IMG/VR virus record: IMGVR_UViG_2541047860_000009
Location: 1 to 33,718 of that record
Source: a virus
Lineage: Duplodnaviria > Heunggongvirae > Uroviricota > Caudoviricetes
Direction: 5' to 3' (one strand)
Length of the DNA stretch: 33,718 nt
Position numbers: made by a program. This document shows, one piece after another, positions 9,001 through 12,000 of the stretch (position 1 is its first letter; each line of letters opens with the position of its first letter).

Positions 9001-12000
9001 TGACCCGCCAGGCGGAAGAACTGGAGTCCAGGGGCTTATACCGTCGTGCTGCAACGGTGTGGATGGCGGCATTCCGTGAAAGCCACTCCCAGCCAGAACG
9101 AAACAATTTTCTGGCGCGTCGTGAACGGTGTTTACGGAAAAGCAGTAAGCGGGCTGCATCAGGTGAAGAGTGGTATCTCTCAGGGAATTACGTGGGGGCT
9201 TAATGAGTAATAAATATTGCCAGGCGCTGGCGGAACTGCGGAACAAACCAGCCCATGAACTGAAGGAAGTGGGCGATCAGTGGCGCCCGCCGGACAACAT
9301 TTTCTGGGGAATTAACACCCTGTTTGGCCCGTTTGTTCTGGATCTGTTCACTGACGGTGATAACGCCAAATGTGCTGCGTATTACACGGCGGAAGACAAC
9401 GCGCTGGCGCATGACTGGTCAGAACGCCTTGCGGAGCTTAAAGGTGCTGCCTTTGGTAATCCCCCATACAGCCGCGCCAGTCAGCATGAGGGGCAATACA
9501 TCACCGGCATGCGTTACATCATGAAGCATGCCAGTGCCATGCGTGATAAAGGCGGGCGCTATGTTTTCCTGATCAAAGCTGCCACCAGCGAAGTGTGGTG
9601 GCCGGAAGATGCAGATCATATTGCTTTTATTCGCGGGCGTATTGGTTTTGAACTGCCTGCCTGGTTTATCCCGAAGGATGAGAAGCAGGTGCCGACAGGC
9701 GCTTTCTTCGCTGGTGCTATTGCTGTTTTCGACAAGACCTGGAAGGGACCGGCAATCAGCTACATCGGGCGCGATGAACTTGAGGCATGTGGTGAGGCCT
9801 TTCTGGCGCAGGTTCGCCAGCAGGCAGAAAAACTGGTCAGGGAGATGGCGGCATGACGAGGTTAACTCAATGCCAGCAGCAGGTGCTGGATATGCTGATT
9901 TCTTATCAGAAAGAACGTGGCTTCCCGCCAACCAATCAGGAGGTGGCAACCATGCTGGGATACCGTTCAGTGAATGCAGCGGTGGAGCATCTTCGCGCAC
10001 TGGAGAAAAAAGGCGTCATCACGATAAAGCGTGGCGTGGCCCGGGGCATCACGCTTCATACCGCGGTGAAGGACGACGACAGCGAGGCGGTCGGGATTAT
10101 CCGCTCACTGCTTGCCGGTGAGGAAAACGCAAGGCTGCGTGCAACCCACTGGTTACATGAGAGGGGCCTGAAAGTATGAAGCTGATCCTGCCTTTTCCGC
10201 CCAGCGTGAACACGTACTGGCGACACCCCAACAAAGGGGCGTTTGCTGGTAAGAGCCTGATAAGCGCGGCGGGGCGAAAATTTCAGAGCGCGGCGTGCGC
10301 AGCAATAGTTGAGCAGTTACGTCGTCTGCCAAAACCAACGTCGGCACCTGCTTCAGTGGAGATCGTGTTGTTTCCTCCGGATAACCGGATCCGCGATCTG
10401 GACAACTATAACAAGGCGCTGTTTGACGCCCTGACCCACGCGGGTGTGTGGGAAGACGACAGACAGGTGAAAAGAATGCTGGTGGAGTGGGGACCGGTTA
10501 TCCCGAAAGGGAAGGTCGAGATCACTATCAGTAAGTATGAGAAACCGGCGGGTGCAGCCGCCTGATTAAGAGGAGAAACGAAGTATGAATAATCTGATGG
10601 TTATTGATGGTATTGAAGTTCGTCGTGATGTTTATGGGCGTTACAGCCTGAACGATCTGCATCGCGCAGCAGTAGCATCTGGTGCAAATGCCAGAACCAA
10701 GGAGCCAGGAAAGTTTCTTTCCAGCCAACAAACTGTTGAACTTGTTCATGAATTGACCAACACCCAGAATTTGGGTGTTGACCCGGTGAGTGTGATTCAT
10801 GGGGGAAATGAACGGGGAACTTATGTCTGCAAGGAACTGGTGTATGCCTATGCAATGTGGATCAGCCCGTCATTCCATCTGAAGGTGATCCGTACTTTCG
10901 ACATGGTAACCAGCACACCGGAAAAATTATCCGGACAGGCTGCTGACAAGATGCAGGCTGGTGTGATTCTGCTGGACTTTATGCGTCGGGAATTAAACCT
11001 GTCTAACTCATCTGTGCTTGGTGCCTGTCAGAAACTCCAGGAGGCTGTTGGCTTACCGAATCTGGCACCGCGCTATGCCATTGATGCTCCTGCTGATGCA
11101 CACGATGGCTCAAGTCGCCCGACACTGTCACTGAGTGCACTGCTGAAACAGTATGGTATCCGCCTGACGGCTAATCAGGCATATCACCAGATGGTGAAGC
11201 TGGGGATCGTCGAGCAGCGCGAACGATACAGCCGTACCGCGATTAACAACATCAAAAAATTCTGGTCGCTGACAGCGAAAGGCTGCATGTTCGGCAAGAA
11301 CATCACCAGTCCCGCAAATCCGCGCGAGACACAGCCGCATTTCTTCGAATCCCGATTCCCTGAGCTGTTAAAGCTGCTCGATACCGTTCATTGAGGTGAC
11401 CGTGAGAGCACTACTGACCCCTGAAATTGCCCCGCGTATGGGGATCGTATTGTTCAGGCCAGGTTCAGAGCTGATGCCCCTGTTTATGCAGGGGCGTGTC
11501 CTGCTGGAGCCTGAGCCGGAACGTTATTCATCTTTCGCCAGTGGTGCCGTTCCGGCGGCATCACAACCGCTGGCGGATGATCCTGCCGTTCGGGCCGTGT
11601 TCCGCAATGAGGCAGTGATCCGTCGTGCTGGTGGCGTGGAATGTCTTGAAAGCTGGTTACTTCGTGAAAAAGGCTGCCAGTGGCCTCATTCCGACTGGCA
11701 CAGCGAGAACATGACCACAATGCGACACGCGCCGGGCGCAATCCGTCTGTGCTGGCACTGCGATAACCAGCTGCGCGATCAGTTCACGGAACGGCTGGAA
11801 TCAATGGCAACGGATAACTGTGCCCGCTGGGTGTTGTCTGTTGTGCGTCGGGATCTCGGTTTTGATGACAGTCACGTTGTGACAATGCCGGAACTGTGCT
11901 GGTGGCTGGTTCGTAATGATCTGGCGGATGCCTTACCGGAAAGTGCAGCCCGTAAGGCACTGAGATTACCGAAGCCTGTTGTGCCGTCTGTCACCCGGGA

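What the first reader, a model, noticed from the sequence alone, without database searches (positions are those of the whole stretch)
9853..10179. LexA DNA-binding-domain-only paralog in the nin-like region
The 108-aa product aligns by eye with the N-terminal winged-HTH domain of E. coli LexA, including the recognition-helix region (RSxNAAxEHLxAL), but stops before the hinge, cleavage site and S24 peptidase domain. Such a protein would be an uncleavable, SOS-insensitive binder of LexA-type boxes. It could hold particular host or phage SOS-box promoters repressed during the DNA-damage response, or titrate such sites.
Basis: partly seen in the sequence, partly recalled or inferred. Interest (0 to 1): 0.6.

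Follow-up and report, generated by a model that had tools for sequence, protein, structure and literature searches.

The report
Prophage LexA DNA-binding-domain-only protein
A very common, already annotated prophage gene encodes the DNA-binding half of the bacterial DNA-damage repressor LexA without its self-cleaving half; nobody appears to have tested what it does, but it is probably a damage-insensitive DNA-binding regulator made when the phage wakes up.

Summary
The ORF is real: 9853-10179 (+), 108 aa, a full-length match to Pfam LexA_DNA_bind (E=3e-19). It is about 50% identical to the E. coli LexA DNA-binding domain, and the AF2 model superposes on DNA-bound LexA at 1.0 A. There is no S24 peptidase domain. 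It does not stop at the winged helix: about 39 more residues form a conserved two-helix tail, probably a dimerisation module.

It is not new. The same gene is annotated "LexA DNA binding domain protein" or "LexA family transcriptional regulator" in mEp460, SfV, SfII, cdtI and Stx2c/Stx2a phages. It occurs in 2233 of 5426 complete E. coli genomes and is PHROG 362. Relatives at 40-57% identity in Salmonella, Cronobacter, Klebsiella and Atlantibacter prophages mostly keep the order DNA methyltransferase - this gene - RusA - antirepressor-like - DUF968 - Q.

I found no experimental study.

The SOS-box-binding idea is plausible but unproven. The four primary base-contact residues (S39, N41, A42, E45) are kept here. 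However, E44 is never kept in the family, and position 45 varies between subfamilies.

The two strong SOS boxes in the window also occur in phages without this gene.

The closest tested precedent, GIL01 gp6, is an independently truncated LexA homologue that binds a different site and activates transcription.

The parts
9853..10179 (+). CDS of the 108-aa LexA-DNA-binding-domain-only protein (called 'LexN' in this report); the stop codon is included
   Evidence: ORF list and sequence. PF01726 E=3e-19. PHROG 362 E=2e-59 over the full length. 99% identical to mEp460 gp046 'LexA DNA binding domain protein'.
9853..10059 (+). Residues 1-69: winged helix-turn-helix homologous to LexA residues 1-69
   Evidence: phmmer hit to 1lea over residues 2-69. 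AF2 secondary structure H6-22, H28-35, H40-52, E56-58, E66-68. Foldseek match to 3jso at rmsd 1.0 A over 68 aa.
9970..10008 (+). Residues 40-52: recognition helix (VNAAVEHLRALEK). With S39 just before it, it carries S39/N41/A42/E45 and the E44V change.
   Evidence: Alignments. Contact residues from PMC3091678 and PMC11442139. Family residue counts.
10075..10161 (+). Residues 75-103: conserved two-helix C-terminal tail (EAVGIIRSLLAGE / ARLRATHWLHE), inferred to be a dimerisation hairpin that replaces the S24 domain
   Evidence: AF2 helices H75-88 and H93-103; block-mean pLDDT is 61 for residues 71-80 and 85-87 for residues 81-100. A97 and L101 are invariant, and A79, A93 and G105 nearly so, in relatives of 38-57% identity. 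No PDB sequence match to the tail. Dimerisation itself is an inference.
9170..9856 (+). Upstream phage Dam-type N6-adenine methyltransferase. Its stop codon overlaps the LexN start codon (ATGA).
   Evidence: PF05869 E=2.8e-44. Overlap seen in the sequence. A methyltransferase lies immediately upstream in Cronobacter, Salmonella and Atlantibacter relatives.
10176..10565 (+). Downstream RusA Holliday-junction resolvase. Its start codon overlaps the LexN stop codon (ATGA).
   Evidence: PF05866 E=1.3e-14. Same neighbour.
5705..5724 (.). Strong SOS box TACTGTTTTTATATACAGTA inside the cI-like repressor gene. It is a candidate LexA-type operator; no link to LexN has been shown.
   Evidence: PWM score 27.6 against a maximum of 20.3 in 200 shuffles (the PWM was built from boxes I recalled from memory). 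ACTGT-N8-ACAGT occurs 2 times against 0.03 expected. Conserved in diverged cI alleles, including phages without LexN.
14449..14468 (.). Strong SOS box TACTGTAAAAATAAACAGTG at codons 3-10 of the late-region N6_N4 DNA methylase.
   Evidence: PWM score 22.5. Conserved at the same place in phiP27, phiNP, phiKO2, a Providencia phage and Stx2a phages, which lack LexN.

Best explanation
The gene encodes a RecA-insensitive descendant of proteobacterial LexA. It keeps the winged-helix DNA-binding domain and has replaced the hinge and S24 peptidase/dimerisation domain with a short two-helix hairpin.

Shown here:
- LexA ancestry and fold.
- Absence of the peptidase domain.
- Conservation of the tail.
- Position in the early rightward (nin-like) operon, with translational coupling to dam and rusA.

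Inferred:
- The hairpin dimerises the protein.
- The dimer binds palindromic DNA built from CTGT-type half-sites, that is, SOS-type operators.
- It acts as a LexA surrogate that cannot be cleaved.

Because it is made only after prophage induction (or, in the Klebsiella relatives, from an SOS-controlled promoter), it would appear exactly when host LexA has been destroyed. It could then re-impose repression on some LexA-controlled promoters of the host, of co-resident prophages, or of the phage itself.
For: - LexA_DNA_bind over its full length, about 50% identity to the E. coli LexA NTD, and rmsd 1.0 A to the DNA-bound structure.
- The primary base-contact residues S39, N41, A42 and E45 (PMC11442139) are all kept. 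S39, N41, K53 and R64-G65-I66 are invariant in 34 family members.
- The tail is conserved in relatives of 38-57% identity and is predicted as two helices; block-mean pLDDT is 61 for residues 71-80 and 85-87 for residues 81-100.
- From my own knowledge, not tested here: the LexA DNA-binding domain fused to a foreign dimeriser such as a leucine zipper is a working repressor of SOS operators. The architecture is therefore sufficient in principle.
- Two independent regulatory settings both give expression when LexA is gone. One is the early operon of lambdoid prophages, with ATGA overlaps and no promoter-like site. The other is about 600 bp downstream of a canonical SOS promoter and a dinI homologue in Klebsiella prophages.
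- The window carries two strong canonical SOS boxes.
Against: - There are no binding data of any kind.
- E44, a contact residue according to PMC3091678, is replaced in 34 of 34 family members. Residue 45 is E in 16, D in 9 and L/T/G/I in 9. Residues 40 and 43 also vary by subfamily.
- From general knowledge, host LexA across these same Enterobacterales recognises one constant box. This pattern looks like diversifying specificity.
- GIL01 gp6 shows that a truncated LexA homologue can recognise another palindrome and activate transcription.
- Both SOS boxes in the window occur in phages without this gene.
- Three of nine related loci have no strong SOS box within 6 kb.
- Binding the box at the head of the late operon would hinder the phage's own late transcription.
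- Dimerisation through the tail was not tested.
Confidence: 0.4

Rival explanations
1. It is a phage-specific regulator with altered specificity, the gp6 model. The LexA-derived domain has drifted to recognise a phage-lineage-specific operator rather than the host SOS box. It then represses or activates a phage promoter, for example for timing of late or antirepressor-like genes, with no direct effect on the host SOS regulon.
For: - E44 is lost in all 34 members. Positions 40, 43, 44 and 45 differ between subfamilies but are fixed within them: E. coli VNAAVE, Klebsiella SNAVLL, Cronobacter PNAATD, Atlantibacter PNAAND.
- GIL01 gp6, a truncated LexA homologue, binds GaCACAn nTGTGaC and activates the late promoter P3.
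- The gene travels in a conserved module that ends in DUF968 and Q.
- The SOS boxes are not tied to its presence.
Against: - The window's own protein keeps all four primary LexA base contacts.
- I found no candidate alternative operator. No spacing other than N8 is enriched for CTGT/ACAG half-sites. There are no shared palindromes in the Q-to-late-promoter regions of six loci. Nothing turned up inside the conserved module.
- gp6 shares no detectable sequence similarity with this protein, so it is only an analogy.
Confidence: 0.35
2. It is a DNA-binding accessory of the neighbouring DNA-transaction genes rather than a transcription factor. For example, it might target or modulate the upstream phage methyltransferase or the downstream RusA resolvase, or act with DUF968.
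For: - A DNA methyltransferase of changing family (PF05869, PF02086, plus a C5 enzyme) lies immediately upstream and RusA immediately downstream in E. coli, Cronobacter, Salmonella and Atlantibacter loci. In the window and in the Cronobacter and Salmonella loci the neighbouring genes overlap by 4 nt; in the Atlantibacter loci the methyltransferase gene ends 9 bp before the LexN start codon.
- One library protein (P0153) joins the LexN winged helix to the C-terminal HNH-like part of DUF968.
Against: - Gene order in mosaic phage operons is weak evidence for function.
- The Klebsiella relatives have neither a methyltransferase nor RusA next to the gene.
- P0153 may be a deletion product in a decaying prophage.
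- The conserved residues are those of the DNA-reading helix and wing of a classical repressor.
Confidence: 0.12
3. It is a non-functional remnant of a captured lexA gene, carried along passively.
For: It is a truncated copy of a host gene. Several frameshifted or fused variants exist in the databases.
Against: - Intact length, an invariant DNA-reading core and a conserved tail persist across relatives down to 38% identity in at least five genera.
- 2233 of 5426 E. coli genomes carry it at 95-99% identity.
- It has a Shine-Dalgarno-like GGAG 8 nt before the ATG.
Confidence: 0.03

Closest known systems
E. coli LexA (SOS repressor; PDB 1lea, 3jso)
   Same: [quoted passage not shown] Identity is about 50% over residues 1-69, with rmsd 1.0 A. 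The same recognition-helix residues S39, N41, A42 and E45 and the same wing residues R64-G65-I66 are present.
   Different: There is no S24 peptidase/dimerisation domain, no conserved Ala-Gly cleavage site, and E44 is replaced by V. A two-helix tail stands in place of the hinge and C-terminal domain. The protein is phage-encoded in an early operon and scores below the TIGR00498 cut-off.
GIL01 (Bacillus tectivirus) gp6, a truncated LexA homologue that activates late promoter P3 (PMC6182141)
   Same: It is a phage-encoded protein that consists essentially of a LexA DNA-binding domain without the cleavage domain, and it is made early in lytic development.
   Different: There is no detectable sequence similarity (BLASTP gave no alignment), so the two truncations arose independently. 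gp6 is 66 aa with no helical tail. It derives from Bacillus LexA, binds GaCACAn nTGTGaC and activates transcription. The target and the sign of regulation of the present protein are unknown.
mEp460 gp046 / SfV Orf42 / SfII, cdtI and Stx2c-phage homologues; PHROG 362; NCBI 'LexA family transcriptional regulator'
   Same: It is the same gene, at 94-99% identity (97.9-99.7% nucleotide identity for the phage records listed), in the same position between dam and rusA. It matches PHROG 362 over its full length.
   Different: Nothing of substance differs. These entries are annotations by homology only, and I found no functional study.
Engineered LexA(1-87)-leucine-zipper fusions (my own knowledge, not checked here)
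   Same: The architecture is a LexA DNA-binding domain plus a small foreign dimerising element. Such fusions repress SOS operators and cannot be cleaved.
   Different: The present protein is natural, its dimerisation is only inferred, and its recognition helix is not identical to that of LexA.

Membership tests
Pfam PF01726 LexA_DNA_bind domain family | Score above the curated gathering threshold over the whole domain model | tested here: met
   69 bits against a cut-off of 23.7, E=3e-19, profile positions 1-65 of 65.
Bona fide LexA (TIGR00498 equivalog) | Whole-protein score above the NCBIfam cut-off | tested here: not met
   70.7 bits against a cut-off of 110.95; only model positions 1-91 of 203 are matched.
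Bona fide LexA (TIGR00498 equivalog) | C-terminal S24 peptidase domain with the Ser119/Lys156 dyad | tested here: not met
   The protein ends at residue 108, there is no PF00717 hit at E<=1, and AF2 shows only two helices after the wing.
Bona fide LexA (TIGR00498 equivalog) | Ala84-Gly85 self-cleavage site in a strand-loop that docks into the active site | tested here: not met
   'LLAGE' aligns with 'VAAGE'. However, the Gly is replaced by K, N, E or D in relatives, and the segment lies in the predicted helical tail, at the end of H75-88.
Bona fide LexA (TIGR00498 equivalog) | Recognition-helix residues that read CTGT (S39, N41, A42, E44, E45) | tested here: inconclusive
   S39, N41, A42 and E45 are kept and E44 is replaced by V. 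In the family as a whole, E44 is 0 of 34 and E45 is 16 of 34.
Bona fide LexA (TIGR00498 equivalog) | Binds CTGT-N8-ACAG operators and represses SOS genes | not testable with these tools
   This needs EMSA or reporter assays. The only available facts are that two strong boxes are present in the window and that they also occur in phages without the gene.
PHROG 362 'transcriptional repressor' (prophage LexA-DBD plus tail family) | Full-length profile match | tested here: met
   E=2e-59, residues 1-108 matched to profile positions 1-106 of 106.
PHROG 362 'transcriptional repressor' (prophage LexA-DBD plus tail family) | Conserved C-terminal two-helix tail and nin-region synteny (MTase - gene - RusA ... 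DUF968 - Q) | tested here: met
   Tail invariants A97 and L101. Synteny in Cronobacter, Salmonella and Atlantibacter loci; a partly different context in Klebsiella.
GIL01 gp6-type truncated LexA activators | Sequence homology to gp6 | tested here: not met
   BLASTP gave no alignment at E<=100.
GIL01 gp6-type truncated LexA activators | Binds a site overlapping the -35 element of a late promoter and activates it | not testable with these tools
   I saw no candidate site in the late-promoter regions of six loci. An experiment is needed.

The most novel reading that the evidence does not exclude
Roughly 40% of sequenced E. coli strains, and many Salmonella, Klebsiella and Cronobacter strains, carry prophages that on induction produce a natural, uncleavable 'LexA DNA-binding domain plus dimeriser'. 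This protein would re-occupy SOS operators after host LexA has been destroyed. It would amount to a phage-imposed shut-off of the SOS regulon, silencing rival LexA-controlled prophage antirepressors, colicins, SOS toxins and error-prone polymerases. It would also act on the conserved LexA boxes inside the phage's own cI gene and at the head of its late operon.
Probability: 0.25. Interest if true: 0.7.

Novelty: already known. Interest (0 to 1): 0.35.

Why it matters
The gene itself is a catalogued, widely distributed prophage gene, so finding it here adds nothing new. It still matters because its function appears never to have been tested, although it sits in about 41% of complete E. coli genomes, including Shiga-toxin phages.

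If it does bind SOS operators, induced prophages would carry a RecA-proof substitute for LexA. That would change how SOS output, mutagenesis, competition between prophages and possibly toxin-phage induction dynamics are understood.

If instead it has drifted to a phage-specific site, it would be a second, independent case beside GIL01 gp6 of a phage domesticating the LexA DNA-binding domain as its own regulator.

Either outcome can be reached with simple experiments.

Tried and rejected
1. Alternative operators. I enumerated exact inverted repeats in 1-17600. I tested CTGT/ACAG half-sites at all spacings from 0 to 20 against 200 dinucleotide-preserving shuffles. I compared the Q-to-late-promoter regions of six loci. 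Only the canonical N8 spacing stood out, and no candidate LexN-specific site emerged.

2. Co-occurrence of the gene with the two SOS boxes. This was rejected as evidence. The box inside cI is present in ST64B, phiNP, Eeyore and a Klebsiella phage. The methylase box is present in phiP27, phiNP, phiKO2, a Providencia phage and Stx2a phages. None of these is among the phage records that encode the protein.

3. 'LLAGE' as a retained cleavage site. Rejected: the Gly is not conserved and the segment lies in the predicted helical tail.

4. A second weak BLASTP match of the tail (AVGIIRS) to the LexA C-terminus (AVGVIRN), E=0.38. It is not significant.

5. Homology of the tail to any solved structure. 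None was found. The Foldseek hits beyond LexA are generic winged helices such as PefI, MarR and GntR, with poor rmsd.

6. A defence-system link. PADLOC gave only a weak CARF-associated winged-helix hit, E=5e-4.

7. The primary LexA-DNA structure paper. It is not held in the library, so the contact residues come from two secondary sources that differ on E44.

8. Literature on this family. Five searches found annotation tables only.

9. An internal promoter near the gene or next to the cI-internal box. No consensus match was found.

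Full report
**1. What is there**

The window carries a lambdoid (SfV/mEp460-like) prophage. Positions 2522-24803 match phages PhiR55_1 and PhiR40_1 at 97% identity, and positions 2522-17527 match mEp460.

The ORF named in the finding exists exactly as described: 9853..10179 (+), ATG start, 108 aa. A GGAG lies 8 nt before the ATG. The ATG overlaps the stop codon of the upstream gene (ATGA), and the ORF's own stop overlaps the ATG of the downstream gene (ATGA).

The neighbouring genes, in order, by Pfam:
- replication protein (HTH_36/DnaD_N)
- PerC-like protein
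- phage Dam methyltransferase (PF05869)
- this ORF
- RusA (PF05866)
- KilA-N protein
- DUF968/HNH protein
- antiterminator Q (PF03589)

No sigma-70-like promoter was found near the ORF. The count between 5900 and 12500 was below the shuffle expectation. The gene therefore reads as part of the tightly packed early rightward operon.

**2. Is it a LexA DNA-binding domain? Yes.**

- Pfam LexA_DNA_bind: E=3e-19, 69 bits against a cut-off of 23.7, over the whole 65-position model.
- The best solved-structure matches are all LexA; the top one is the E. coli LexA DNA-binding domain 1lea, E=8.6e-16.
- BLASTP to E. coli LexA gives 43% identity over 90 residues.
- An AF2 model built on 34 relatives (mean pLDDT 83) has the helix-helix-helix-strand-strand topology of LexA. 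It superposes on LexA in its DNA complex (3jso) at 1.0 A over 68 residues with 50% identity.

It is not a full LexA. The NCBIfam lexA equivalog scores 70.7 bits against a cut-off of 110.95 and matches only model positions 1-91. There is no S24 peptidase hit.

**3. One correction to the observation**

The protein does not end at the wing. About 39 residues follow it.

Sequence alignments continue through the LexA hinge, so that 'LLAGE' falls opposite the LexA cleavage site 'VAAGE'. That Gly is K, N, E or D in relatives. AF2 predicts the segment as two helices, 75-88 and 93-103; block-mean pLDDT is 61 for residues 71-80 and 85-87 for residues 81-100.

The tail is conserved across relatives down to 38% identity. 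A97 and L101 are invariant. A79, A93 and G105 are nearly so, and the hydrophobic spacing is amphipathic. It has no sequence match in the PDB.

I infer, but could not test, that it is a dimerising hairpin that replaces the LexA C-terminal dimerisation domain.

**4. It is already known as an annotation**

The same gene, at 94-99% identity (97.9-99.7% nucleotide identity for the records listed), is present in 50 phage records. These include mEp460 (gp046, 'LexA DNA binding domain protein'), SfV (orf42), SfII, SfIV, cdtI, 15 Stx2c phages and Stx2a_WGPS2.

It is also present in 2233 of 5426 complete E. coli genomes, with up to four copies per genome. There it is annotated 'LexA family transcriptional regulator' and is flanked by the phage methyltransferase and RusA.

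It is PHROG 362, 'transcriptional repressor', matched over the full length at E=2e-59. A Stx-phage survey lists a pfam01726 'LexA family transcriptional regulator' phamily in 15 phages, in a table and without comment.

Five literature searches found no experiment on this family.

**5. The wider family**

An exhaustive HMMER search and a profile search find full-length relatives (DNA-binding domain plus tail) at 38-57% identity. They occur in Cronobacter, Salmonella, Klebsiella (one 90% cluster with 1017 members), Atlantibacter and Enterobacter.

Gene order is strikingly stable in Cronobacter, Salmonella and Atlantibacter prophages:
- replication gene
- PerC-like gene
- a DNA methyltransferase whose family changes (PF05869, PF02086, or an added C5 enzyme)
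- this gene
- RusA
- a KilA-N or Rha/ANT protein
- DUF968
- Q

In Klebsiella the gene instead lies about 600 bp downstream of a textbook SOS promoter, TTGAAC...TATACTGTTTATTTATACAGTA, and a dinI homologue. DUF968 and a lysis cassette follow.

Both settings predict expression precisely when host LexA is inactive. One is after prophage induction and the other is directly from an SOS promoter. This is an inference from gene arrangement, not a measurement.

**6. Does it read SOS boxes?**

Two secondary sources give the LexA base-contact residues. PMC3091678 lists S39, N41, A42, E44 and E45. A review of the crystal structure lists S39, N41, A42 and E45 as the primary ones. I could not obtain the primary structure paper.

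The window's protein has S39, N41, A42, V44 and E45.

In 34 family members the counts are as follows:

| Position | Residues observed |
|---|---|
| 39 | S in 34/34 |
| 41 | N in 34/34 |
| 42 | A in 28/34 |
| 44 | E in 0/34 (A, V, L, N, F or T instead) |
| 45 | E in 16, D in 9, L/T/G/I in 9 |

Subfamily-specific combinations at positions 40, 43, 44 and 45 are also visible. The wing residues R64-G65-I66 and K53 are invariant.

The DNA-binding surface is therefore clearly under selection, and the E. coli subfamily could plausibly still read CTGT. The family as a whole, however, looks as if its specificity has diversified. That would not be expected if the common job were to bind the one constant SOS box of enterobacterial hosts.

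**7. SOS boxes in the window**

A weight matrix built from about 20 E. coli SOS boxes that I recalled from memory finds two sites far above background:
- 5705-5724, TACTGTTTTTATATACAGTA, score 27.6
- 14449-14468, TACTGTAAAAATAAACAGTG, score 22.5

The maximum over 200 shuffles was 20.3. CTGT-N8-ACAG occurs 3 times against 0.4-0.6 expected. ACTGT-N8-ACAGT occurs twice against 0.03 expected, and 0 of 200 shuffles reach that. No other spacing is enriched.

Neither site is tied to this gene.

The first lies inside the cI-like repressor gene, in the part that encodes the linker. It is kept as a good SOS box in alleles of about 66-95% nucleotide identity (the window protein is 95% identical to the mEp460 repressor): mEp460, ST64B, a Klebsiella phage, Citrobacter phiNP and E. 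coli phage Eeyore. It is kept even though the surrounding linker sequence varies.

The second lies at codons 3-10 of the late-region N6_N4 methylase. It is kept in phiP27, phiNP, phiKO2, a Providencia phage and Stx2a phages.

None of ST64B, phiNP, Eeyore, phiP27 or phiKO2 is among the 60 listed of 61 phage records that encode the protein. These boxes are most simply host-LexA operators.

If the phage protein bound the second box tightly, it would sit at the head of the phage's own late operon. That is an argument against high-affinity binding there.

**8. Closest tested precedent**

GIL01 gp6 is a truncated LexA homologue of a Bacillus tectivirus. It binds a different palindrome overlapping the -35 element of late promoter P3 and activates it.

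The present protein shows no BLASTP similarity to gp6. The two are independent truncations, one of a proteobacterial LexA and one of a Bacillus LexA.

From my own knowledge, engineered fusions of LexA(1-87) to a leucine zipper repress SOS operators. This shows that 'DNA-binding domain plus any dimeriser' is enough for repression.

**9. Verdict**

- Uncleavable: yes.
- Binder of SOS boxes: plausible for this subfamily but untested, and weakened by the variation across the family.
- Acting in the lysogen: unlikely.

My best explanation is a non-cleavable, tail-dimerised LexA surrogate made in the lytic or SOS phase that binds CTGT-type palindromes (confidence 0.40). The main rival is a gp6-like regulator with phage-specific specificity (0.35). 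Lesser rivals are an accessory factor for the methyltransferase/RusA/DUF968 module (0.12) and a dead remnant (0.03).

As a feature it is already known and annotated. The open question is its function, which simple biochemistry would settle.

Noticed in passing
window 5705-5724 (inside the cI-like repressor ORF 5241..5933, minus strand): A near-consensus SOS box, TACTGTTTTTATATACAGTA, lies inside the repressor coding sequence, in the linker between the HTH and S24 domains (peptide NTVYKNS). It stays a strong SOS box in diverged alleles (about 66-95% nucleotide identity): mEp460, ST64B sb38, Klebsiella phage 1 LV-2017, Citrobacter phiNP and E. coli phage Eeyore. The surrounding linker sequence varies. 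This suggests a functional LexA operator within cI. No consensus promoter lies next to it, and its role (roadblock or internal/antisense promoter) is unknown.
   Followed up: partly
window 14449-14468 (codons 3-10 of DNA methylase ORF 14441..15493): An SOS box, TACTGTAAAAATAAACAGTG, overlaps the start of the late-region N6_N4 methylase, the first long gene after Q and the late-promoter region. It is conserved at the same codons (NTVKINS) in phages as distant as phiKO2, a Providencia phage, phiP27, phiNP and Stx2a phages. This suggests LexA control at the head of the late operon or of the methylase.
   Followed up: partly
L002-L004, 5385-5404 and 5425-6393 (Klebsiella prophage loci): The Klebsiella relatives of the protein (130 aa; a cluster of about 1000 members) are not next to dam or rusA. 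They lie in an apparent SOS-controlled operon: a canonical -35/-10 promoter with an overlapping SOS box, then a dinI homologue, a small ORF and the LexA-domain gene, followed by DUF968 and lysis genes.
   Followed up: partly
window 7192-7268 and 7293-7380 (+): Rfam matches above gathering score to the isrK Hfq-binding RNA (64 bits) and the C4 antisense RNA (82 bits). Both lie within or overlap the ORF 6832..7668, which corresponds in position to the gene mEp460 annotates as 'regulatory protein Rha'. An RNA-based antirepressor or anti-Q control module like that of P1/P7 and Gifsy-1 may be present.
   Followed up: no
proteins P0128, P0130, P0145, P0150 (library hits, not in the window): These proteins have two LexA_DNA_bind domains in tandem and no S24 domain. 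They are apparently covalent pseudo-dimers, a second way of making a cleavage-proof two-headed LexA-type binder.
   Followed up: no
protein P0153 (library hit); compare window 11396..12391: This 240-aa protein joins the LexN-type winged helix, without the tail, to the C-terminal HNH-like part of DUF968. DUF968 is the gene that lies downstream of LexN in every locus examined. It may be a real fusion or a deletion product in a decaying prophage.
   Followed up: no
window 14087-14290 (+): A small conserved ORF of 67 aa with no Pfam hit lies between the late-promoter/terminator region and the methylase. An ORF occupies the same position in phiP27 (L23), phiNP, the Providencia phage and the Salmonella loci. 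Its function is unknown.
   Followed up: no
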